Positions 2,510-27,036 of a DNA stretch of 32,000 nt are shown piece after piece. The translations under genes were made by a program, and so were the position numbers. Numbering within the stretch: position 1 is the first letter of the stretch; every line of letters begins with the position of its first letter. Location of the stretch: positions 1,770,001 to 1,802,000 of the forward strand of contig NC_007493.2 in NCBI RefSeq assembly GCF_000012905.2, given 5' to 3'. The stretch comes from Cereibacter sphaeroides 2.4.1. Its GTDB lineage: Bacteria > Pseudomonadota > Alphaproteobacteria > Rhodobacterales > Rhodobacteraceae. A model generated the notes under the pieces. That model worked only from the letters and a program-made list of their open reading frames with translations, made no database searches and was not told the origin of the DNA.

Positions 2510-2525
2510 TGGCGCAGAACTTGCA
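2510..2525 (+). promoter_or_regulatory. Sigma-54 (RpoN) promoter TGGCGC-N5-TTGCA in front of the motF-like gene
   Basis: TGGCGCagaacTTGCA has the correct -24 GG / -12 GC spacing. It lies 10 nt after the flhB stop and about 29 nt before ATG 2554, with GGAGAG as RBS between them. Confidence 0.75.
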
Positions 2526-3955: not shown

Positions 3956-5284
3956 TCAGAGCGCGCCGGTGACGATGGCCTGACGGCGGCGCTGCACCGA
4001 CGAGGGGATGTTCAGCTGCTCGCGATATTTGGCGACGGTGCGCCGGGCAAGCGTCACGCCCTCGTCGGAAATGATCTTTGCGATCGCATCGTCGCTCAGC
4101 GGATCGTCGGGCGATTCCGCCTGCACGAGCTGGCGGACGCGGTGCCGGACAGCGGCGGCCGATCCCGCCGTGTCGCCCTCGCGGGCGGCCAGCGCTGCGG
4201 TGAAAAACGACTTCAGCGGGAAGGTGCCCTGCGGCGTGGCGATCATCAGCCCCGAGCTCACCCGGCTGACGGTGCTTTCATGCACGCCCACCGCATCGGC
4301 CACCTCGCGCAGCGTCATGGGCGCCATGCGCGCCAGCCCCTCCTCGAGGAAGCCGCGCTGCCGGCGGACCACCTCGGCGCCGATCTTGAGCGTGGTCTGG
4401 TTGCGATGCTCGACGGCCCTTGCAAGCCATTTCGCGACCGACAGCCGCTCGCCCACATAGGGCGCGGCCGTCCGGGCGAAGCCTTCCGCCGCGTCCGAGC
4501 GCACCACGACGGACGGCAGCGTCGAGCGGTTCAGATCCACTCGCCAGCCTTCGGCGCCGCGGCTGACCACCAGATCCGGCGGTCGCTGGGGCGGAGGGGC
4601 GGCATCGAACAGCGCGCCCGGCTTGGGATTGAGACCGCGCAGGCTGCGCAGCACGGCCTTCAGATCCTCCATCCCGCAGCCGCAAGCGCGGCACAGGCCC
4701 TTGAGATCGGCCGCAGCCAGCAGCGGGAGATGCGCGAGAACGGCGGCGAACAGCGGGGTGAGCAGCCCCTGCTCTTCCGCCTGAAGCTGCAGGCATTCGG
4801 CAAGCGTGCGCGCAAAGAGCCCTGCGGGTTCGATCTTCTGAAGCCGGGCGAGCAGCGCCTCGGCCGCCTCGAGCGACAGGCCCGCGCGGAAGGCAAGTTC
4901 CTCCATCGGGCGACCGAGCCAGCCCCAGGGTTCGAGCGCGTCGAGAAAGACCTGGGCGGCCGCCGCTTGCGGGGCATCGAACCCCAGACGCGCGATCTCG
5001 GCCGCCACATGCACATAGAGCGACGGCCCCGGATCGGCGGCAAGCCCTGCCACGCGGTCCCAGTCCTCGGGTGCGGTCTTGCCCAGAGGAGCGGACGGCA
5101 CCGGCGCCGGCGGCAGGCGCAGTTCGATGAAAGGGTTTTCCTCCGACTGGCTCTCGATGAACGAGGACAGTTCGGCGTTCGGCATCTGCAGCAGGCAGAT
5201 GGCCTGCTGGAGCTGTGCCGTCACCACGAGCGACTGGCGCTGTGCGAAGCTCTGTGCGGTGTAAAGCTGCATTCCCGGCGTCAT
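3956..5284 (-). CDS. rpoN: RNA polymerase sigma-54 factor, flagellar-cluster paralog (about 442 aa)
   Basis: Region I is QSLVVTAQLQQAICLLQMPNAEL. The C-terminal part has an HTH and the RpoN box (GVTLARRTVAKYREQL). The start is either ATG 5284 or ATG 5272; the track start at 5398 (TTG) adds a non-homologous extension. In R. sphaeroides the copy in this position is called rpoN2. Confidence 0.9.
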   Translation of the reverse strand: MTPGMQLYTAQSFAQRQSLVVTAQLQQAICLLQMPNAELSSFIESQSEENPFIELRLPPAPVPSAPLGKTAPEDWDRVAGLAADPGPSLYVHVAAEIARLGFDAPQAAAAQVFLDALEPWGWLGRPMEELAFRAGLSLEAAEALLARLQKIEPAGLFARTLAECLQLQAEEQGLLTPLFAAVLAHLPLLAAADLKGLCRACGCGMEDLKAVLRSLRGLNPKPGALFDAAPPPQRPPDLVVSRGAEGWRVDLNRSTLPSVVVRSDAAEGFARTAAPYVGERLSVAKWLARAVEHRNQTTLKIGAEVVRRQRGFLEEGLARMAPMTLREVADAVGVHESTVSRVSSGLMIATPQGTFPLKSFFTAALAAREGDTAGSAAAVRHRVRQLVQAESPDDPLSDDAIAKIISDEGVTLARRTVAKYREQLNIPSSVQRRRQAIVTGAL

Positions 5285-5410
5285 CCCCACCCTGTCGTAG
5301 GAACAGAGTGGCGGAAAATGGCCGGCCGGGCAAAATTTCAGTTTGACAGGGGTAAAATGACGGCGGTTCGACGCGAGACCTGCCGCCGCGGCGGCCAAGT
5401 GCTTGTCGCG

Positions 5411-7157: not shown

Positions 7158-7185
7158 TCCGGGGGTAGAGCGCAAGGAGCATCCC

Positions 7186-8841
7186 ATGGCGACGGACTGG
7201 CTGAACGCCCTCGGTGCATCGGGCTCGGGCCTGAACATCCGCGAACTGGCGACGAGCCTCGTCACGGCGGACACGGCGGTGAAACGCACGACCGCCGAGA
7301 AGAAGATCGAGGCGACCGAGGTCTCGATCTCCGCCCTGGGCAAGGTGCGCGCGCAGTTCCAGTCGCTGTCCGAGGCAATCGGAACCGTCACGCAATCCTC
7401 CGTCCTCAAGGCCACGAGCTCCAGCTCGGCCCTCTCGATCAGCGTCACCGACCGCACGCTCGTGTCCGAACAGGTCACGGAGATCGAGGTTCTGCAGGTG
7501 GCCCAGCGTCAGGTGCTGGAGTTCGGCGGCTTCCCGGCGGCGGACGCCGCCCTCGGCGCGGGCCGGATCACCATCGACTTCGGCGTCTGGTATGCGCCCG
7601 AAGGATCGCAGGAGGCTACGAGCTTCGCGCAGAACCCCGCCCTCGCCAGTTCCTCGATCGATGTGGGCGACGGCGCCACGCTGCAGGATCTGGCGACCGC
7701 GCTGAGCGACATCCCCGGTGTGGTGGCGCGCGTGCTCGACAAGGGCGACGGGACCTTCTCGCTCGGCGTCGTATCCGAGCCGGGTGCGGGCAGCGCCCTG
7801 CGCTTCACGGTGGCCGAGGGCACGGCGGGCAACGGGCTTGCGCGCTTCGACACGACGGCCACGAACCTCGACGCGCAGGTGCAGGCGGCGACGGATACGC
7901 TCCTGACTGTCGACGGAATCACCGTCGCCCGCGGCTCGAACGAGATCACCGATCTGGTGCCGGGCGCCACGCTCACCGTGTCGGGCAAGACCTCTGGCCC
8001 CGCGGTCGTCTCGGTCAGCCGCGACAGCGCGCTGGCCGAGGCGGCCATGGCCTATATGGTCGAGGAGCTGAATGCGACGCTGAAGATCATGCGCGATGTG
8101 ACGGTGCGCTCGGTCGACGGCACGGCCGCAGGCGATCTGGTGGGCGACAGCACCGTCGAGGCGCTGAAGCGGCAGTTCTCATCGCTCCTCTCGGGGCCCT
8201 TGACGGGACACGGCGAGAAACCGGTCTACCTCTCGCAGCTCGGGGTCTCGACCAACCGCGACGGCTCGCTCTCGTTCGACGAAGAGGCCTTCCAGAAGGC
8301 CTTCGCCGCGCGGCCCGAGATCTTCGATGCGATGTTCACCAACAGCTTCTCCTCGCCCACCGAAGGGGTGACGGTCACGGGTGCGCTGACCTCGAAGGCC
8401 GCCTCGGGCGACTATGCCTTCCGGCGCGATCCCGGCACCGGCGCGGTGACAGTCGCCGGCGCCGCGACCTTCGGCCTGCCGGGCACCGACGGCACCAGCA
8501 AATATATCGTTCTCTCGGGAGACATGGCGGGCCTGATCGTCACGGCGAGGGACGATGTCGCCGATGCCACCATCCGCTTCGGGCGCAGCTTCGCCTCGCA
8601 GCTCCAGTCGCTGCTCGACGGGGCGACGGAGGCGGAGGGCAGCATCGCGAAGCGCGAGGATCAGATCGGCAAGCTGGCCGCGGAGCAGGCCGAGGTGATC
8701 GAGGCGCTCGACCTGCGGGCGACGAAGCTCGAGAGCCGCTATCTGGCGCAGTTCACGGCGATGGAGCAGGCGGTCTCGCGGATGAAGAGCACCGGGACCT
8801 ACCTCGAGAACCTCGTCAAATCCTGGAACAAGGACGGCTGA
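7186..8841 (+). CDS. fliD: Flagellar filament cap protein FliD (551 aa)
   Basis: ATG 7186 has an AAGGAG RBS; the track start at 7117 lies upstream of the promoter. The N-terminus GSGLNIRELATSLVTADTAVKRTTAEKKIE and the C-terminus ...LESRYLAQFTAMEQAVSRMKSTGTYLENL are typical of FliD/HAP2. Confidence 0.92.
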   Translation: MATDWLNALGASGSGLNIRELATSLVTADTAVKRTTAEKKIEATEVSISALGKVRAQFQSLSEAIGTVTQSSVLKATSSSSALSISVTDRTLVSEQVTEIEVLQVAQRQVLEFGGFPAADAALGAGRITIDFGVWYAPEGSQEATSFAQNPALASSSIDVGDGATLQDLATALSDIPGVVARVLDKGDGTFSLGVVSEPGAGSALRFTVAEGTAGNGLARFDTTATNLDAQVQAATDTLLTVDGITVARGSNEITDLVPGATLTVSGKTSGPAVVSVSRDSALAEAAMAYMVEELNATLKIMRDVTVRSVDGTAAGDLVGDSTVEALKRQFSSLLSGPLTGHGEKPVYLSQLGVSTNRDGSLSFDEEAFQKAFAARPEIFDAMFTNSFSSPTEGVTVTGALTSKAASGDYAFRRDPGTGAVTVAGAATFGLPGTDGTSKYIVLSGDMAGLIVTARDDVADATIRFGRSFASQLQSLLDGATEAEGSIAKREDQIGKLAAEQAEVIEALDLRATKLESRYLAQFTAMEQAVSRMKSTGTYLENLVKSWNKDG

Positions 8842-10125: not shown

Positions 10126-10923
10126 TCACGGTTGCATTGCGAGCAGGTCGCGGAAGGACTGGACCGCGTGGAACCGGGCGCGCAGGCGCTGCGGAAGGTC
10201 CGCCTCGGCGAGGAGGTCCGGGGCGGCTGCGCGAAGCTCCAGAGGCCCCTGCGAGGGAATGTCGGAGGCCGCCCGGGGCAGCCCTCCCTGCGTCTCGCCG
10301 AGGCTCACCATCGGCTGCGGAGCCAGCACGAGGAGGCCCTGCACGCGCGCGGCGGCGAGGGTCGCCTCGTCGGGCAGGTCCGTCGCGGCCTCGGCCAGAC
10401 GCGATCCGCCGCGCTCGGCCTCGACCTTGGCGAGATAGGCCGCGCCGCGCCCGCGATCGGCCGAATGATAGGCCGCCGTCGCCGCCTCCCACGAGCCGAG
10501 ACGGGCGCGGAGTTCGCGCAGGAAGCGCGCCGCATGGCGGGTGTTGCGCACAGGATCGATCATCTCGTCGGCCGAAGCGAAGGCGGGCGCATGCCAGCGC
10601 CAGTTGAGCTGCATGCAGCCCACGTCGATGTTGGACACGCCCGAGGCGACCGTCGACTTGAGCATGCGCACCGCCTCGGCCCGGGTCTCGAAGAACATGC
10701 CGCGCCCACCCTGGTTCAGCGTCCAGGGCCAGGCGCGCCCGCCCCGGCCCGATTCCACGCGGGCAATCGCCTCCATCAGCCCCTCGGGTATGCCGGCCTC
10801 GGCACCGGCCCGGGCCGCGAGCGTCTCGCAGACCTCGTCCGCCGCGAGCGCGGGGGCGGCCAGAAGCGTCAGGATCAGGACGAGCGCGAACCTCATGCCC
10901 GTCGCGGGCAAGGGCCGTGCCAT
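10126..10923 (-). CDS. sltF: Flagellar soluble lytic transglycosylase (SltF-like, 265 aa; alternative start 10896)
   Basis: The signal peptide is MRFALVLILTLLAAPALA. SLT-domain motifs are present (IARVESG catalytic Glu, NIDVGCMQLN, AAYHS). It lies directly after flgL with a 6-nt gap. Confidence 0.85.
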   Translation of the reverse strand: MARPLPATGMRFALVLILTLLAAPALAADEVCETLAARAGAEAGIPEGLMEAIARVESGRGGRAWPWTLNQGGRGMFFETRAEAVRMLKSTVASGVSNIDVGCMQLNWRWHAPAFASADEMIDPVRNTRHAARFLRELRARLGSWEAATAAYHSADRGRGAAYLAKVEAERGGSRLAEAATDLPDEATLAAARVQGLLVLAPQPMVSLGETQGGLPRAASDIPSQGPLELRAAAPDLLAEADLPQRLRARFHAVQSFRDLLAMQP

Positions 10924-19277: not shown

Positions 19278-19293
19278 TGCAAGCCCCGTGCCA
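19278..19293 (-). promoter_or_regulatory. Sigma-54 promoter TGGCAC-N5-TTGCA for the flgG operon
   Basis: The - strand reads TGGCACggggcTTGCA, a perfect consensus. It sits in the 53-nt flgF-flgG gap, about 34 nt upstream of the flgG ATG. Confidence 0.85.
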
Positions 19294-22030: not shown

Positions 22031-22450
22031 TCACTGCCCCATGCTGGCGGTGCGGGCCATGAGCGACCGCAGCGTCGAGACCGCCTCGAGCGTGTTCTGA
22101 TACTGGCGGCTCGCCTCCATCATCTCGACCATCTCCTCGTCGACCGAGACCGGCGCCTCCCAGACATAGCCTTCGGGATCGGCCTGCGGATGATCGGGCC
22201 GGTAGACCCGCGCGGGCTCGCGGTCGAGGCTGACGACGCCCGCCACATCCGTGGTCGAGAGGCCGGTCCGGCCCACCGCATCGGCATAGCTCGTCTCGAA
22301 CACGGGCCGCAGCGGCCGGAAGGCCGTCTCGGCCTTGTCCGAGACGGTGCCCGCATTGGCGAGGTTGCTCGCCACCGTGTTCATCCGCACCATCTGCGCC
22401 GAGAGCGCCCGCGCGCCCACGTCGAAGACACTGTCGATCCCGTTCATCAT
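22031..22450 (-). CDS. flgC: Proximal rod protein FlgC (139 aa; second ATG at 22447 is equally possible)
   Basis: [35 protein letters not shown] ... [29 protein letters not shown]. The start overlaps the flgB stop (ATGATGA). The rest of track ORF 22031..22885 is an off-frame extension over flgB. Confidence 0.92.
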
Positions 22451-22833
22451 TCCCCCTTGATCGCCGTCATCAGGCCCGAGATGCGCCGGTTGAGGAGCGC
22501 GAGGCTCGTCTGGTAGCGCAGGGTGTTTTCCGCAAATTCCATCTGCTCCACGGCCATCTCGACCGTGTTGCCGTCGAGCGAGGGCGTGACCGGATCGCGG
22601 TAGAGCGCCTCGCCCCTCGCGGCCGGGCCGCCCGCCGCGAAATGGCGCGCCTCGGTGGTGCGCAGCGTGCCGTTGCCCGACGCCCGGGCGAGCTCCGCTC
22701 CGAAGTCGATGTCGCGCGCCTTGTAATGCGGGGTCGCGGCATTCGCGATGTTCGAGGTCAGCAGGTTGTTGCGCGTCTCGCGCAGGACGAGGGCCTGCGC
22801 ATGGACCCCCAGCTGATCGCGAAATCCCGTCAT
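22447..22833 (-). CDS. flgB: Proximal rod protein FlgB (128 aa)
   Basis: [28 protein letters not shown] ... [36 protein letters not shown]. An AAGGAGGA RBS is present. Confidence 0.93.
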
Positions 22834-22868: not shown

Positions 22869-22884
22869 TGGACCGGGACTTGCA
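22869..22884 (+). promoter_or_regulatory. Candidate sigma-54 promoter TGGACC-N5-TTGCA facing the 388-aa orphan gene
   Basis: The + strand reads TGGACCgggacTTGCA. GG and GC are correctly spaced, but two mismatches follow the GG. The predicted start is near 22895, 28 nt before ATG 22923, with a GAGGAG RBS. It shares TTGCAA 22880-22885 with the flgB promoter. Confidence 0.45.
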
Positions 22885-22896
22885 AGGACGATGCCA
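22881..22896 (-). promoter_or_regulatory. Sigma-54 promoter TGGCAT-N5-TTGCA for the flgB operon
   Basis: The - strand reads TGGCATcgtccTTGCA. The predicted transcription start is near 22870, giving a leader of about 37 nt to the flgB ATG at 22833. Confidence 0.8.
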
Positions 22897-22922
22897 GATG
22901 CCCAGCCTCCGAGGAGAAAGCG

Positions 22923-24089
22923 ATGCCCGCGTCGTCCGATCTGGCCCGTCATCCCGCGCTCGACGCGGCCGCGCGCGCCGTGCTGGCGCTTCTCGAGCCT
23001 CTGGACCGGAGGGAGGGCCTCGCGCGTCTCGAAGCCCTCCATGCCGCGGCCGCCCCCGGTCCGGCCCGACGCGCGTTGCTCGCCGCCCGGATCGCGCTCC
23101 TGCGCGGCGCGCCGGCGCTGGCGCCTCCCGCCGTCATGCCGGAACCCGAGCCGGAGCCGGAGCCGCCCGCCCCCGAGCCGCCGGCGCCGAAGCCCGTGGT
23201 GATCCCGCAGCTCGATCTTTCGGCCATGATGGCGCTCTTCGAGGATGCCGAGGAGGAACCCGCCGCGGATGCCGCCCCCCCGGACGAGGGCTGGACCCGG
23301 ATCCGCCTGACCGAGGACGGCCCGCGCGGCCCCGGCCAGTTTCCGAAGGGCGCGGCACTCTCGGTGACGCTCGAGGATGCGGCGCGGCTCCTCACTGCGG
23401 GCGTCGCCGAAGAGATGGAGGCAGGTCCCGCCGAGACGGAGCCTTCGCCGCCCGATGCCCCGCAAGAGGCCGCCGTTGCAGGAGATCCTGACGCGGACGG
23501 CACGTCCGCGGAGCCGCCTCACGCCGCCGGACCTGCGCGCCGGCCGAAGCGCAGCGCGCGCCGCAAGACATCGGCCGGCGCCGCGTCCGAAGGGACCGCC
23601 GTGGAAGAGACAGCTCCCAAGGCGCGCGCCTCAAGGGGCCCGCGCCGGTCCCGGCGTGCTGCGGCCGAAGATCCCGGCACGGAGACCATCCCGGCACCCG
23701 CCACCGGCGAGAAAGAGCCGCCCTCTCCGGGTCTCCATCCGCCGACGCAGGCCGCCTTCGTGACATCCGGCGGCCAGCCCTCCGCCGACGTCCCGGCAGT
23801 GGGGCGGCTGCAGACGCTCGATGCCGCGGCCCCGGCGGCCTCGGAGGAACCGGATCCTGACGCGGTTGGCGCCCCTGAGGACGATCCCGCCCCGACCGCC
23901 AAAGGCGTTGCTCCGCCTGCAGAGGCCCCCCCTGTGCGGGGGCGGCCCCAGGGCTTCAATCCCGCCGCATTCGCCGCCCTCGCGGCCTTCGGGGACACCG
24001 ATCCCGCAGAGGATGCGGAAGAAATCGGCGGCGAACCGGGCGTCGGCAAGGCTCCAGATGGGACTGCGCCGCCCACGACGTCAGCATGA
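22923..24089 (+). CDS. Acidic Pro/Ala-rich, probably intrinsically disordered protein of unknown function (388 aa)
   Basis: ATG with a GAGGAG RBS 8 nt upstream. GC3 is high, especially in the first half. The N-terminal ~70 aa are helical, followed by a [19 protein letters not shown] linker, a short ordered-looking core ([39 protein letters not shown]), a basic patch ([12 protein letters not shown]...SRGPRRSRR) and an acidic tail. There is no signal peptide or TM segment. Other frames give only Arg/Gly-rich nonsense. Confidence 0.6.
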
Positions 24090-24369
24090 CGGCAGGATCG
24101 AGCCGGTGCGCATCTGCTCCCGCTCCAGGCAGAGGCCGCCCCGTGCCGCGGACCAGGCGTTGCGCGGGGTTCCGTGTGCCGCGGCGGACGGTGCATTCCA
24201 AACGACCGAACCGCGTCGAGCCTCGCTGCGCCAAGCCTTTCAGGGTTTCGATCGAGGGACGGGCCGTCCCCGCGTCACAAGAGGGCCGGACGAACCGGGG
24301 GGAACGGCGCAACAGGCCGAGCGACCGTCACCATCGGCAGGAGCAAGCCCGCCCGGCGCGGGGCGTGGC

Positions 24370-27036
24370 TCAGGCGGCGGTGGCCTGACAGGCGGCAGCG
24401 GTGCGTTCCAGCGTCGCGGGCAGGCTCTCGAGCGCGCGCGCGGCCTCAGCCGTGTTCGACGCGTCGGCTGCCGTTTCGTAGCTCGCAAGGCTGCGGTGCA
24501 GCGCCATGAGGCCCACGGCCGCCGCCGCCCCCGCCGTCCGGTGCGCGAGCTTGGCGGCCGCCAGATGATCGCCCGCCTCGTGCAGGCGCCGCATCTCGGG
24601 GAGCGCGTCGCCCGTCTCGCTCAGCACCCTGCCGATCATGCCCGCGATATAATCGGGCCCGAGATTGCCCTCGAGGTCGGCCCGCAGCTCGGCGTCGATC
24701 AGCGGCAGATCGTCGGGTGGCGGGTCGCCAGCGGGGAGCACCTCCTCGACCGCGGCGCTGGTTTCCGTGAACTGGCGGATGGCGCGAAACAGCGCCGAGC
24801 GCGTGATGGGCTTCACCAGCACGTCATTCATGCCGGCTGCGAGGAAGTCGGGGACACGGTCCGGGTCGGCATGGGCCGTGGCACCGAGGATGGGCGTGTC
24901 GGTCGAGGCGCCGGCCCGCCGGATCCGTCGCGTGGCCTCGAGCCCGTCCACGCGCGGCATCGAGACATCCATCAGGATCAGGTCGAAGCGGCGGGCGCCA
25001 GCCGCCTCGGCCGCCTCGGCGCCATCCTCGGCCGTCGCCACCTCGTGCCCCGCCATCCGCAGGATCTCGGCGAGGAGCTGACGGTTGATCGCATTGTCAT
25101 CGACCACGAGGATCGCGCGGGCGCCGTCCCCGGCCGATGGCGCATCCTCCGCGAACTCCTCCTGGGCCGCCTCGGCCCCCTGCGCCACGGGCAGCTGCAG
25201 GCGAAGCGTGAAGACGGATCCGAGCCCCAGCTTGCTCTGGACGTCGATCTGCCCGCCCATGGTCTCGGCGGCGAGCTTGGCGATGCCGAGGCCGAGGCCC
25301 GTCCCTTCGCGGATGCGCCCGTAGGAGGCGTCGAGCGTCTCGAAATTGCGGAAGATCGTGTCGAGATGCTCCTCCGCAATGCCGATGCCCGTATCGCCCA
25401 CATGGATGCAGAGGTCGACGGTGCCGGACGTGCGGCCCGGGTGCCAGAGCAGCTCGACCGAGACCTTGCCATTGTCGGTGAACTTGATGGCATTGCCGAT
25501 CAGGTTGTACATCACCCGCAGGAACAGGTGGCGCTGCCCGAGCACGGGCGGCACCGGGTTCTTGGGCTGCGCGAACCACAGCTTGTTGCCGCGCTTGTCG
25601 GCCTGCGGCTGGTTCTGCCGGATCAGCCCCTCGATGAGATCCACCGGCGAGAAGACCGTGCGGGCGTAGCTCGCGCCGTCCTTGTCCGACAGCCGCGTCA
25701 GCTCGAGCACGTTGTTCACCTGATCGAGTGCCGCCGAGCCGCAGCCGATCACGATGTCGGTGAGCCAGCGCTGTCTGTCGGTGAGATCCGTCGAGGTCTG
25801 CAGCAGGTCGGAGGCAGCCATCAGCCCGTTGAGCGGCGTCCGCATCTCGTGGCTCATGACCGCGAGGAAGCGCGACTTGGCCTCTTCGCCCTTCAGCGCG
25901 TCATTGCGCGCCTTCTTCAGGCTCTCCTCACGCTCGAGCCGCTCGGAGATGTCGCGGATGAAGGCGATGAAGAACGGATCCTGCGACGCGCCCTGCGCCT
26001 CGGCCACCGAGACCTCGACCGGGAAGGTCGAGCCGTTCGTGCGCTGCGCCATCATCGTAATGCGCCCGTCGCGCCCGGTCGGGTTCAGCTCCGCCTCTTC
26101 CTCGCCCCGCGCGTGAGGACGCAGCAACCCGTCAGCATCGTCCGTGCGGATATAGTCGACGAAATTCGTGCCTTCGGCCGTCTGCGGCGACCAGCGGAAC
26201 ATGTCCAGCGCCGCACGGTTACATTCGACCACCCGCCCCATGTGGTCGAGCACCACCACCGCATCCAGCGAGGATTCGATGGTGGCGCGCAGGTTGTGGA
26301 CCGACCGTTCGAGCAGCATTCCGCGGCGACGGCGGGCGTTGCTCTGCACGATCACCACGGCGATCAGCACCCCCATCAGCCCCAGAAGTCCGAGGGCCGC
26401 CAGTGCGAACGTCTGGAGCGACTGGCGCAGCGTCGCGCGCCGCGCGTCCGAGACGGTCATCACTTCCCCGAGCGCGCGCACCACGCCCGAGCGGACCGAT
26501 CCCGCATCCCTCTCGAGCTCCCCGATCAGCTGCGGAAGAGCGGCTCTCAGGTCCGCATCCGGCCCGTCGATGACGGGGATCCAGCGGGCGAAGAACCCCT
26601 CCGGCCCGTCGAAGATCGGCAGCACGTCGGCCTCGAGCGGTGCAATGGTGCCGCTTTCGAATCCGCGGACGATGTCCACGCGGCTGTAGAGGATGTCGAA
26701 CCTCTTGCGGAGCTCGTCGAGTCGGGCCGGATCGTCCGACCGATAGGCGGCCATCTGCGCCGCCGAGGCGAGATTCAGCACATCCACCTCGAACTGCGCG
26801 AGCACCCAGGTCCGGTTGTCGAGATGGGCGACCCGATTCTGCTCGAGCTGCTTGTCGATGTCGGAAAAGATGAAGATCGCCGCCACCAGAGCCGTGACGC
26901 CGACCGCGAGGACGAGCACATACCCCGTCCAGCGCTCGAACACGCCCCCCGGAGCCGTGTCGCGGCTTTCGGAGAACATGGCCTGAACCTCTGCTCCCCG
27001 CTCGCCTCCGTCCGGTATGCGGGGGCGCTCGGTCAT
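24370..27036 (-). CDS. Hybrid sensor histidine kinase: TM - ~150-aa periplasmic domain - TM - PAS - HisKA - HATPase - REC - Hpt (888 aa)
   Basis: - TM helices: YVLVLAVGVTALVAAIFIF and FALAALGLLGLMGVLIAVVIV.
- H-box: FLAVMSHEMRTPLNG.
- N-box: NLIGNAIKFT.
- G-boxes: DTGIGI and GTGLGLGI.
- Receiver: ILVVDDN...DLILMDVSMP...VLVKP.
- C-terminal Hpt: LAHRTAGAAAAVG.
- The start ATG overlaps the stop of the upstream gene (ATGA). Confidence 0.92.
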   Translation of the reverse strand: MTERPRIPDGGERGAEVQAMFSESRDTAPGGVFERWTGYVLVLAVGVTALVAAIFIFSDIDKQLEQNRVAHLDNRTWVLAQFEVDVLNLASAAQMAAYRSDDPARLDELRKRFDILYSRVDIVRGFESGTIAPLEADVLPIFDGPEGFFARWIPVIDGPDADLRAALPQLIGELERDAGSVRSGVVRALGEVMTVSDARRATLRQSLQTFALAALGLLGLMGVLIAVVIVQSNARRRRGMLLERSVHNLRATIESSLDAVVVLDHMGRVVECNRAALDMFRWSPQTAEGTNFVDYIRTDDADGLLRPHARGEEEAELNPTGRDGRITMMAQRTNGSTFPVEVSVAEAQGASQDPFFIAFIRDISERLEREESLKKARNDALKGEEAKSRFLAVMSHEMRTPLNGLMAASDLLQTSTDLTDRQRWLTDIVIGCGSAALDQVNNVLELTRLSDKDGASYARTVFSPVDLIEGLIRQNQPQADKRGNKLWFAQPKNPVPPVLGQRHLFLRVMYNLIGNAIKFTDNGKVSVELLWHPGRTSGTVDLCIHVGDTGIGIAEEHLDTIFRNFETLDASYGRIREGTGLGLGIAKLAAETMGGQIDVQSKLGLGSVFTLRLQLPVAQGAEAAQEEFAEDAPSAGDGARAILVVDDNAINRQLLAEILRMAGHEVATAEDGAEAAEAAGARRFDLILMDVSMPRVDGLEATRRIRRAGASTDTPILGATAHADPDRVPDFLAAGMNDVLVKPITRSALFRAIRQFTETSAAVEEVLPAGDPPPDDLPLIDAELRADLEGNLGPDYIAGMIGRVLSETGDALPEMRRLHEAGDHLAAAKLAHRTAGAAAAVGLMALHRSLASYETAADASNTAEAARALESLPATLERTAAACQATAA

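What the first reader, a model, noticed from the sequence alone, without database searches (positions are those of the whole stretch)
22923..24089. Orphan 388-aa acidic, Pro/Ala-rich protein where enteric clusters carry flgA-flgM-flgN
**What the sequence shows**
- The gene divergent from flgB encodes a protein with no signal peptide or TM segment.
- It has a short helical N-terminus and a TonB-like (PE)n/PAPKP linker.
- It has one about 45-aa ordered-looking core, an Arg/Lys patch and a long acidic low-complexity tail.
- It has a good RBS, coding-like GC3 and a candidate sigma-54 promoter.
- I do not recognise it as any named flagellar protein.

**Speculation**
Its position and possible RpoN dependence suggest membership in the flagellar regulon. 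It might be an export substrate, chaperone or scaffold, or a regulator, since disordered proteins such as FlgM and FliK are typical type III substrates. This is speculation.
Basis: inference. Interest (0 to 1): 0.6.

Follow-up and report, generated by a model that had tools for sequence, protein, structure and literature searches.

The report
Uncharacterised conserved flagellar-cluster gene beside flgB
The open reading frame is a real gene (RSP_0084 of Cereibacter sphaeroides) from a previously unnoticed protein family that always sits back-to-back with the flagellar rod gene flgB and shares a two-way sigma-54 promoter with it, so it very probably belongs to the flagellar system, but what it does is untested.

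Summary
The ORF at 22923-24089 (+) is real. It is 100% identical to C. sphaeroides 2.4.1 RSP_0084, annotated "hypothetical".

It is not an orphan. A Cereibacter-only profile of the core found two marine homologues. A widened profile then found 272 proteins, mostly from SAR116/Puniceispirillaceae, Rhodobiaceae and other alphaproteobacterial MAGs.

- **Synteny:** in all 32 loci examined (GC 37-70%) the gene lies next to flgB-flgC-flgD and is transcribed divergently from it, whatever lies on its other side.
- **Promoter:** the intergenic region holds two back-to-back sigma-54 promoters that share a palindromic -12 element (TGG-N8-TTGCAA-N6-TGCCA). The exact pattern occurs once in each of 29 sites. 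In one genus the two promoters are separated.
- **Expression:** published RNA-seq shows RSP_0084 rising and falling with the fla1 regulon.
- **Selection:** dN/dS is 0.1-0.4 in the folded parts and about 0.5 in the tail.
- **Architecture:** a confident N-terminal three-helix bundle, a small DUF7210-like beta domain that some genera lack, and a long acidic disordered tail. The tail carries a basic patch and one to more than ten amphipathic-acidic peptide motifs.

No known flagellar family matches. My best reading is a cytoplasmic, sigma-54 class III, multivalent adaptor or scaffold of the flagellar system. The mechanism is inferred, not shown.

The parts
22869..22897 (.). Composite back-to-back sigma-54 promoter region, TGG-N8-TTGCAA-N6-TGCCA. 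The two promoters share the palindromic -12 element TTGCAA (22880-22885).
   Evidence: The exact 28-bp pattern occurs once in each of 29 sites (the window plus 28 loci), always between flgB and the family gene. It is invariant in 8 Cereibacter-group loci while the flanks diverge. TGG-N8-TTGC occurs 7 times in the window against 2.8 expected.
22869..22884 (+). Sigma-54-type promoter for RSP_0084: TGGACCGGGACTTGCA. The predicted transcription start is near 22895, giving a leader of about 28 nt.
   Evidence: The GG at N8 spacing from TTGC is kept in all loci although the spacer has at least five unrelated sequences. It stands as a separate element in Roseovarius aquimarinus L032. The distance to the ATG is 23-31 nt in all loci. 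The start site is inferred, not mapped.
22882..22897 (-). Sigma-54 promoter for the flgBCDEF operon: TGGCATCGTCCTTGCA on the minus strand.
   Evidence: It matches the consensus TGGCAC-N5-TTGC closely. The distance to the flgB ATG varies from 35 to about 145 nt among loci.
22911..22916 (+). Shine-Dalgarno sequence GAGGAG, 6 nt before the ATG.
   Evidence: CGAGGAGAA is invariant in the 8 Cereibacter-group loci.
22923..24089 (+). Coding sequence of RSP_0084 (388 aa plus stop).
   Evidence: 100% identical to ABA79259.1 (P0022) of strain 2.4.1. dN/dS is below 1 in every segment.
22953..23102 (+). N-terminal three-helix bundle (aa 11-60). R49, A54, A55, R56 and L60 are invariant across the family (motif [13 protein letters not shown] / KRLGxxAARVxILR).
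   Evidence: pLDDT 91-96. Alignments A5 and A8. dN/dS 0.18-0.38. Also present in the variants that lack the beta domain.
23109..23201 (+). Pro/Glu-rich linker, (PE)[13 protein letters not shown], aa 63-93.
   Evidence: The marine homologues have an acidic non-proline linker instead.
23202..23252 (+). Motif [18 protein letters not shown] (aa 94-110): a short amphipathic helix followed by acidic residues.
   Evidence: Helix 99-107 in both models. Near-invariant in Cereibacter. Counterparts in Tabrizicola, Meridianimarinicoccus and Roseovarius.
23286..23420 (+). Small beta domain (aa 122-166; [42 protein letters not shown]), DUF7210-like.
   Evidence: - W124, F140 and P141 are invariant.
- dN/dS 0.09-0.36.
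- Homologues score 17-26 bits on PF23843, whose cut-off is 27.
- Foldseek against BFVD matches DUF7210 phage proteins: probability 1.0, rmsd 1-3 A over 42-50 residues, E 0.008-0.2.
23532..23660 (+). Basic patch (aa 204-246, net charge +11) inside the acidic disordered tail.
   Evidence: A comparable K/R patch lies at the C-terminus in C. azotoformans, C. ovatus and CZR27, and before the C-terminal motif in the marine members.
23952..24014 (+). C-terminal amphipathic-acidic motif [21 protein letters not shown] (aa 344-364).
   Evidence: Helix 347-357. Related to the marine C-terminal EDMLAGFDLD. Also related to the repeated MDLAAQFAEMEE / GMDAAFALLGDLEG units of Tabrizicola.
22447..22833 (-). 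flgB, the first gene of the divergent rod-hook operon.
   Evidence: TIGR01396 FlgB, E 4.6e-31.

Best explanation
RSP_0084 is a genuine protein-coding gene. It is the C. sphaeroides representative of an undescribed family that forms part of the gamma-like ("Fla1 of sphaeroides", or fla3-type) flagellar gene cluster of Alphaproteobacteria.

**Expression.** It is transcribed by sigma-54 (RpoN2) holoenzyme from a promoter lying back-to-back with the flgB promoter. The two share a palindromic -12 element. The gene therefore switches on with the class III rod-hook genes, and each polymerase binding event serves one direction only.

**Protein.** It is cytoplasmic. It has a folded head (a three-helix bundle, here followed by a small DUF7210-like beta domain) and a long acidic disordered tail. 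The tail carries a basic patch and a variable number of short amphipathic-acidic peptides.

**Proposed mechanism (inferred).** The head docks on one flagellar or regulatory partner. The tethered peptide motifs bind one or many copies of a second partner. That would make it a multivalent adaptor or scaffold acting during basal-body and hook assembly, not a structural or exported subunit.

**Status of each step.** Shown: the gene is real, the synteny holds, the promoter elements are conserved, and the transcript co-varies with fla1. Inferred: sigma-54/FleQ-FleT dependence, cytoplasmic location and the adaptor role.
For: **Coding**
- dN/dS is 0.18-0.38 (N-domain), 0.09-0.36 (core) and 0.46-0.76 (tail) across seven orthologues.
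- Homologues exist in genomes of 37-60% GC.

**Homology independent of the seed sequences**
- A profile built only from the Cereibacter-group core was searched against 1.84 billion representatives. It found P0036 and P0037 at E 4e-4 and 8e-4.
- Both also carry the N-domain motif, which was not in that profile.

**Synteny**
- The gene is divergent from flgB in 7 loci of the Cereibacter group (Cereibacter species plus Rhodobacter sp. NSM and CZR27), 1 metagenome contig, 19 MAG loci and 4 loci from three other Rhodobacterales genera.
- The far-side neighbour changes: a histidine kinase, DctPQM, fliS/cheA, or a lipoprotein followed by flgM and flgA.

**Promoter**
- The two promoters are resolved as separate elements in L032.

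**Expression**
- RSP_0084 log2FC is +2.86 on UdsC induction and -1.8 in the UdsC deletion, alongside the fla1 genes.
[quoted passage not shown] Its position at RSP_0051, next to fliE, fits FleT.
- RSP_0085 is absent from that supplementary table.

**Architecture**
Against: - No experiment addresses function, location or partners.
- The + strand -24 element (TGGACC) is a poorer consensus match than flgB's, and no transcription start site has been mapped.
- Synonymous divergence is 3-10 times higher than in flgB, and the tail is only weakly constrained, so much of the protein may be dispensable.
- The beta domain is missing in several genera. If it is the functional core, those proteins may do something different.
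- Its physical interlock with the flgB promoter could preserve the linkage without any shared function.
- Neither the 2020 Fla1 review nor the 2025 Rhodobacterales survey lists the gene as flagellar.
Confidence: 0.6

Rival explanations
1. It is a substrate of the flagellar type III export apparatus: a secreted regulator or ruler in the manner of FlgM or FliK. Its disorder would serve export.
For: Most of the protein is disordered and acidic. It is co-expressed with the rod-hook genes. Marine homologues have a roughly 17-residue Ser/Gly/Asn-rich N-terminal extension.
Against: - In the window protein the confidently folded bundle starts at residue 11.
- There is no match to FlgM (PF04316) or to FliK-type domains.
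- A separate flgM is present in the marine clusters, and fliK is RSP_0058.
- A repeat number varying from 1 to more than 10 is not what a length ruler tied to a conserved hook would show.
Confidence: 0.13
2. It is a regulator, not a scaffold. It would bind nucleic acid or the sigma-54 machinery (RpoN2 or FleQ/FleT) through the conserved Arg/Lys face of the head, with the acidic tail acting as an autoinhibitory mimic. This would feed back on class III expression.
For: - Invariant or near-invariant basic residues (R49, R56, R61, R126, R128, K142) sit in an otherwise very acidic protein.
- The beta domain has weak look-alikes in the RNA-binding L9 N-domain.
- The gene sits on the promoter it might regulate.
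Against: - The structural similarity to L9 is not significant (E above 0.1).
- No DNA-binding family is detected.
- The beta domain is dispensable in some genera.
Confidence: 0.15
3. It is a passenger. The gene stays next to flgB only because its promoter is physically fused to flgB's, and its product has little or no role in motility.
For: - It evolves fast, and its tail length varies from 151 to 634 aa.
- It sits at the very edge of the cluster in Cereibacter.
- Flagellar surveys omit it.
Against: - Purifying selection acts on two domains over a GC range of 37-70% and across several alphaproteobacterial orders.
- The Shine-Dalgarno sequence and promoter-to-ATG spacing are retained everywhere.
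- The gene stays with flgB when the two promoters are no longer fused (L032).
Confidence: 0.1
4. It is not a gene, only a chance long ORF in 76% GC DNA.
For: GC3 (0.79) is below that of the neighbours, and GC2 is high in the tail. Several overlapping ORFs of 180-230 aa occur in other frames.
Against: dN/dS is below 1 in this frame. There are 272 homologues, including in AT-rich genomes where long chance ORFs are rare. A structured domain is predicted with pLDDT above 90.
Confidence: 0.01

Closest known systems
Lineage-specific accessory proteins of the C. sphaeroides Fla1 flagellum (MotF/RSP_0067, FlgT, FlgP, SltF)
   Same: They are encoded inside the fla1 cluster, were annotated hypothetical until studied, and respond with the same regulon (PMC7277832).
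   Different: By established knowledge those proteins are periplasmic or membrane-anchored. RSP_0084 has no signal peptide or TM segment and shares no sequence family with them.
Pfam DUF7210 (PF23843) and DUF7302 (PF23976): small phage proteins of unknown function
   Same: The beta-domain fold and sequence pattern match. 28 of 40 family members give sub-threshold hits. Foldseek against BFVD matches DUF7210 proteins with probability 1.0 and TM-score (target) up to 0.85.
   Different: - Scores stay below the curated cut-off, and the window protein itself gives no hit.
- The phage proteins are 50-90 aa single domains.
- Here the domain is embedded between a helical bundle and a long disordered tail, and it is absent in some genera.
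- DUF7210 has no known function, so the match adds nothing on function.
Acidic multivalent polar hub proteins (HubP/FimV of Vibrio and Pseudomonas, PopZ of Caulobacter). This comparison rests on my own recall, not on a test.
   Same: They are strongly acidic, largely disordered, carry a variable number of short repeats, and are linked to placing or organising polar flagella and chemotaxis arrays.
   Different: - There is no LysM domain, TM segment or FimV C-terminal domain, and no PopZ-type helices were detected.
- No homology was found.
- No localisation data exist.
- This is a resemblance of design only.
Bidirectional promoters created by sequence symmetry of a core element (described for sigma-70 -10 elements; from my own recall)
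   Same: Two divergent promoters overlap on a palindromic core element, here the -12 TTGCAA. One short segment therefore drives both directions.
   Different: Here the sigma factor is sigma-54, which needs an enhancer-binding activator. I found no description of a shared-palindrome sigma-54 pair in the held library.
flgA-flgM-flgN, the unit divergent from flgB in enteric bacteria
   Same: It occupies the same position relative to flgB.
   Different: It is unrelated in sequence. flgA and flgM are separate genes elsewhere in these clusters.

Membership tests
FlgM (anti-sigma-28) | C-terminal sigma-28-binding domain (Pfam PF04316); a small protein of about 100 aa | tested here: not met
   No Pfam or NCBIfam hit at E up to 0.1. 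A separate PF04316 gene lies in the homologous marine cluster.
FliK (hook-length control) | C-terminal Flg_hook/T3S4 domain | tested here: not met
   No Pfam hit. fliK is RSP_0058.
Flagellar export chaperones FlgN, FliS, FliT | Match to the respective Pfam or NCBIfam models | tested here: not met
   No hit for the window protein or for 40 family members.
TonB | N-terminal membrane anchor plus a C-terminal TonB domain flanking the Pro-rich spacer | tested here: not met
   No hydrophobic segment and no TonB_C hit. Only the (PE)n/PxP linker composition is shared.
DUF7210 (PF23843) | Score at or above the gathering threshold of 27 bits | tested here: inconclusive
   The window protein gives no hit. 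Homologues score 17-26.1 bits. The fold agrees with BFVD DUF7210 proteins.
Sigma-54-dependent promoter | GG at -24 and GC at -12 with TGG-N8-TTGC spacing | tested here: met
   TGGACCGGGACTTGCA at 22869-22884. The GG and the TTGC are conserved in 32 of 32 loci; Tabrizicola has AGG.
Sigma-54-dependent promoter | Transcription needs RpoN and an enhancer-binding ATPase (RpoN2 with FleQ/FleT) | not testable with these tools
   The only evidence is indirect. The transcript follows the fla1 regulon when the motility regulator torF (RSP_0051) changes.
Flagellar gene cluster member (fla3-type / sphaeroides Fla1) | Conserved co-location with core flagellar genes across lineages | tested here: met
   32 of 32 loci, with variable far-side neighbours.
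Flagellar gene cluster member (fla3-type / sphaeroides Fla1) | Loss-of-function motility phenotype | not testable with these tools
   No mutant is reported in the held literature.
HubP/FimV-type hub | LysM domain, TM segment and C-terminal FimV motif | tested here: not met
   No Pfam hits and no TM segment.

The most novel reading that the evidence does not exclude
RSP_0084 defines a new, conserved cytoplasmic component of the gamma-like flagellum of Alphaproteobacteria (Cereibacter and other Rhodobacterales, SAR116, Rhodobiaceae). It would be a multivalent acidic hub whose tethered peptide motifs engage a ring-forming part of the motor or export apparatus, or the sigma-54 machinery. Its synthesis would be coupled to, and compete with, rod-operon transcription through a shared palindromic sigma-54 promoter. 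Deleting it would change flagellar assembly, number or placement.
Probability: 0.3. Interest if true: 0.7.

Novelty: new member of a known kind. Interest (0 to 1): 0.55.

Why it matters
C. sphaeroides Fla1 is a long-standing genetic model, and its parts list is treated as essentially complete. The 2025 Rhodobacterales survey draws the cluster boundary at RSP_0083, one gene short of this one.

A gene that has stayed glued to flgB from Cereibacter to SAR116, one of the most abundant marine bacterial groups, and that shares its promoter, is a strong candidate for a missing component or regulator. The hypothesis can be tested with a single deletion in an organism where the tools already exist.

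The promoter matters separately. Two sigma-54 promoters share one palindromic -12 element, and a natural variant has them pulled apart. This offers a clean system for asking how an enhancer-dependent polymerase chooses direction, and whether promoter competition sets the ratio of two products.

The comparison also corrects an annotation. Some RefSeq models of this gene (296 and 283 aa) cut off the most conserved domain.

Tried and rejected
**Searches that found nothing useful**
- Pfam and NCBIfam on the window protein gave no hit.
- A PDB sequence profile search gave only a chance hit, E 0.33.
- Foldseek against PDB gave nothing significant for either model. The best E was 0.14, and the L9 N-domain and GINS B-domain matches are generic small-fold look-alikes.
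- PHROGs gave only weak matches to families of unknown function.
- The sigma-70 promoter and intrinsic terminator scans around the gene found none.

**Literature**
- RSP_0084 appears only in an RNA-seq table and in a locus-range statement.
- The Fla1 review does not mention it.
- Ballado et al. 2001 on the flgB operon is not held.
- The supplements of a transcription-start-site paper do not list it.
- A search for shared-palindrome sigma-54 promoters found nothing relevant.

**Technical dead ends**
- My first sigma-54 pattern used the wrong spacing (N9) and missed the sites. It was corrected to N8.
- A tight regular expression for the amphipathic motif was too narrow to score the marine members, so the motif relationship is described qualitatively only.

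**Ideas considered and dropped**
- A beta-clamp-binding motif (QLDLS): the Gln is not conserved.
- An AbrB/SpoVT-like fold: the pattern does not fit.
- A Cereibacter-specific de novo gene: refuted by the marine homologues.
Full report
**1. What is at the coordinates**

The window is the Fla1 flagellar region of Cereibacter (Rhodobacter) sphaeroides 2.4.1. In order it carries:
- fliP (3' end), fliQ, fliR, flhB and two unannotated ORFs;
- rpoN2, fliC, fliD and a sigma-54 activator;
- an SLT-domain gene, large hook-associated genes, then flgI, flgH, flgG, flgF, flgE, flgD, flgC and flgB;
- the ORF in question;
- a convergent hybrid histidine kinase.

The ORF at 22923-24089 (+) encodes 388 aa. It is 100% identical to ABA79259.1 of strain 2.4.1. 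A published table lists flgB as RSP_0083 and the next locus, RSP_0084, as "hypothetical protein".

GC3 (0.79) is lower than in neighbouring flagellar genes (0.89-0.94). Composition alone is therefore a weak argument for coding, particularly in the tail.

**2. It is a real gene**

I built codon alignments with seven orthologues from the Cereibacter group: C. sphaeroides lineages, C. azotoformans, C. sediminicola, C. ovatus, and Rhodobacter sp. NSM and CZR27. dN/dS by segment:

| Segment | dN/dS |
|---|---|
| N-terminal 62 codons | 0.18-0.38 |
| Core, aa 88-166 | 0.09-0.36 |
| Tail | 0.46-0.76 |
| flgB (control) | 0.09-0.23 |

The frame is therefore under purifying selection throughout, strongly in two blocks and weakly in the tail.

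Synonymous divergence between C. sphaeroides lineages is several-fold higher than in flgB (0.18-0.43 against 0.04-0.06). I did not explain this.

**3. It is not an orphan**

A single-sequence search found only 11 proteins, all from the Cereibacter group. I then built a profile from the Cereibacter-group core only and ran it against 1.84 billion cluster representatives. It returned two extra proteins from low-GC marine metagenomes, at E 3.7e-4 and 7.9e-4.

These two proteins also carry the N-terminal helix motif, which was not part of the query: KRLGxxAARVxILRxR against [13 protein letters not shown].

A profile including them then recovered 272 proteins. None has a precomputed Pfam domain. Nearly all are from marine metagenomes.

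A scan of one genome per species placed relatives in MAGs of SAR116/Puniceispirillaceae, Rhodobiaceae, a Rhodobacteraceae MAG and unclassified Alphaproteobacteria.

**4. Invariant linkage to flgB**

In every locus with enough sequence, flgB-flgC-flgD lie immediately upstream on the opposite strand:
- 7 Cereibacter-group loci;
- a 518-kb metagenome contig;
- 19 MAG loci, confirmed by tblastn, with FlgB 51-61% identical to the window's.

I then took the closest FlgB relatives outside the Cereibacter group (65-75% identity): Tabrizicola, Meridianimarinicoccus and Roseovarius aquimarinus. Each has an unannotated divergent gene at the same place.

Those proteins (634, 241 and 151 aa) share three things with RSP_0084:
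- the N-terminal helical domain;
- the Pro/Glu linker;
- the amphipathic "motif A".

They lack the beta core. In Tabrizicola the tail consists of a 159-bp unit repeated 6.3 times at 92% identity. Each unit encodes two amphipathic-acidic peptides.

The neighbour on the far side differs among lineages:
- the same histidine kinase and molybdopterin-oxidoreductase pair in Cereibacter and Tabrizicola;
- DctPQM in Meridianimarinicoccus;
- fliS and cheA genes in R. aquimarinus;
- a small lipoprotein followed by DUF2802, flgM, flgA, flgT and flgP in the marine clusters.

The gene travels with flgB, not with the flank.

**5. A shared two-way sigma-54 promoter**

The 89-bp flgB/RSP_0084 spacer contains TGGACCGGGACTTGCA on the + strand (22869-22884). 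It also contains TGGCATCGTCCTTGCA on the - strand (22882-22897). The two -12 elements overlap on the palindrome TTGCAA.

- TGG-N8-TTGC occurs 7 times in the window against 2.8 expected. Another instance lies just upstream of flgG.
- The core CATCTGGACCGGGACTTGCAAGGAGGATGCCAGATGCC is essentially invariant in 8 Cereibacter-group loci while the flanks diverge.
- The composite TGG-N8-TTGCAA-N6-TGCCA occurs exactly once in each of 28 fetched loci and in the window. It is always in this spacer, in genomes from 37% to 70% GC.
- The eight spacer bases of the + strand promoter fall into at least five unrelated sequence classes, yet the GG is kept.
- The distance from the composite to the family gene's ATG is 23-31 nt everywhere. 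The distance to the flgB ATG ranges from 35 to about 145 nt.
- Tabrizicola keeps the GG but has AGG in place of TGG.
- In R. aquimarinus the two promoters are separate elements 8 bp apart: TGGTCCGGTCCTTGCA toward the family gene and TGGCACCGGTTTTGCA toward flgB. This is a natural dissection showing that two promoters exist.

The transcription start sites and the dependence on RpoN2 and FleQ/FleT are inferred.

**6. Expression data**

In RNA-seq from the Klug laboratory, RSP_0084 is among the 50 genes most induced when the sRNA UdsC is overexpressed (log2FC 2.86). It is reduced in the deletion (-1.7 to -1.8). It sits in the table among fliA, flgF and cheW4.

[quoted passage not shown] Its locus, RSP_0051, lies next to fliE (RSP_0052), which fits FleT, the class III co-activator that is co-transcribed with fliEFGHIJ.

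flgB transcripts run away from RSP_0084, so they cannot account for these reads. RSP_0085, the histidine kinase, is absent from that supplementary table.

**7. The protein**

AlphaFold2 with a 105-sequence alignment gives:
- a three-helix bundle, aa 11-60, pLDDT 91-96;
- a short helix, aa 99-107;
- a four-strand-plus-helix domain, aa 124-164, pLDDT 66-85.

The full-length model shows the rest as disordered except for a helix at aa 347-357.

There is no hydrophobic segment, so the protein is predicted to be cytoplasmic.

Residues invariant across the 105-sequence family alignment are R49, A54, A55, R56, L60, W124, F140 and P141. R61, R126, R128 and others are nearly invariant.

The beta domain gives sub-threshold hits to Pfam DUF7210 in 28 of 40 members (best 26.1 bits, cut-off 27). 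It also hits DUF7302 in 18 of 40. Its model superposes on small DUF7210 phage proteins in BFVD (probability 1.0, rmsd 1-3 A over 42-50 residues, E 0.008-0.2). No function is known for these.

PDB searches by sequence and by fold found nothing significant.

The tail is acidic (pI about 4.1 by segment) with one basic patch (net charge +11, aa 204-246). That patch moves to the C-terminus in other species.

The recurring short element is an amphipathic helix followed by acidic residues:

| Lineage | Motif |
|---|---|
| C. sphaeroides | [12 protein letters not shown] and [14 protein letters not shown] |
| Marine members, C-terminus | EDMLAGFDLD |
| Tabrizicola, many copies | MDLAAQFAEMEE / GMDAAFALLGDLEG |

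These are shown.

The universal parts are therefore the helical head and the tethered motifs. The beta domain and the motif copy number are variable.

**8. Interpretation**

- **Very likely (my estimate about 0.85):** the gene belongs to the flagellar cluster and is a sigma-54 class III gene.
- **Best-supported guess on what it does (inferred from design, not shown):** a cytoplasmic multivalent adaptor or scaffold.
  - It has a conserved folded head.
  - Its disordered tail is fast-evolving and variable in length.
  - It repeats a short binding-type peptide.
  - Its promoter is a weaker consensus match than flgB's, which suggests sub-stoichiometric production.
- **Export substrate:** less likely, because the N-terminus is folded and no FlgM or FliK features are present.
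- **Regulator:** binding nucleic acid or the sigma-54 machinery through the conserved basic face remains a serious alternative.
- **Pure passenger:** hard to square with conservation across orders and with retention of the gene where the promoters are unfused.

**9. Comparison with what is known**

The gene matches no named flagellar family. The 2020 Fla1 review does not mention it. A 2025 survey defines the sphaeroides cluster as RSP_0032-RSP_0083, which excludes it. A 2010 paper gives the range as RSP0032-RSP0084 without comment.

I found no description of two sigma-54 promoters sharing a palindromic -12 element. From my own recall, the nearest concept is the symmetry-based bidirectional sigma-70 promoter.

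**10. Verdict**

This is an uncharacterised but conserved accessory gene of a known system, with an unusual and conserved promoter arrangement. It is worth a knockout. Interest 0.55.

Noticed in passing
window 19279-19293 (-): A consensus sigma-54 element, TGGCACGGGGCTTGC, lies in the 53-bp gap between flgF and flgG. This fits a separate promoter for the flgG-onward operon.
   Followed up: no
window 10908-10922 (-): A consensus sigma-54 element, TGGCACGGCCCTTGC, lies directly after the flgL stop and overlaps the first ATG of the longest ORF of the SLT-domain gene (10126-10923). That ATG is therefore probably not the true start, and the gene probably has its own sigma-54 promoter.
   Followed up: no
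window 2510-2524 (+) and 7172-7186 (-): Two further TGG-N8-TTGC matches. One is at the flhB/next-ORF junction. The other is inside the 5' end of fliD, facing fliC. Their significance is unknown.
   Followed up: no
window 22923-23201 (N-terminal 93 codons): RefSeq models of this gene in some C. sphaeroides strains are 296 or 283 aa and start at codon 93 or 103 (P0027, P0034, P0035). They therefore omit the three-helix bundle, which is the most widely conserved part of the family. The 388-aa start is supported by conservation, the Shine-Dalgarno sequence and the promoter spacing.
   Followed up: yes
window 22923-24089 compared with 22447-22833: Synonymous divergence between C. sphaeroides lineages is 0.18-0.43 in RSP_0084 but only 0.04-0.06 in the adjacent flgB. 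Weaker codon bias, recombination or local hypermutability could each explain this. It remains unexplained.
   Followed up: partly
window 24090-24369: A 280-bp non-coding gap separates the stop of RSP_0084 from the end of the convergent histidine kinase, with no predicted intrinsic terminator. In C. azotoformans and C. sediminicola the same gap is only 14-23 bp.
   Followed up: no
L029 3172-4166 (Tabrizicola sp. M-4): The flgB-divergent gene contains a 159-bp tandem repeat, 6.3 copies at 92% identity. It encodes alternating amphipathic-acidic peptides. This looks like a recent expansion of the motif that occurs two or three times in RSP_0084.
   Followed up: partly
L023 6627-6971 (+); L009 9012-9527 (+): In the marine clusters the family gene is followed on the same strand by a small predicted lipoprotein (lipobox LTGC/LAAC, then CDDL[ST]RF) with no Pfam match. 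No counterpart follows RSP_0084 in the window.
   Followed up: no
L023 7033-11141 (-); L009 9595-13776 (-): The SAR116-type clusters carry DUF2802, a 101-aa ORF, flgM, flgA, a 154-aa unknown, flgT and an LPP20 (flgP-like) gene next to this locus. These are Vibrio-like outer-ring genes, as in C. sphaeroides Fla1. The fla3-type cluster is therefore widespread in marine Alphaproteobacteria.
   Followed up: partly
window 3956-5398 (-): The longest ORF here carries the RpoN-box motif (ARRTVAKYR) and is the cluster's own sigma-54 gene (rpoN2). My GC3/GC2 filter had missed it.
   Followed up: partly
L029 356-2980 and window 24370-27036: The same hybrid histidine kinase and molybdopterin-oxidoreductase-like pair flanks the gene in both Tabrizicola and Cereibacter. 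This cluster boundary therefore probably predates the split of the two genera.
   Followed up: no
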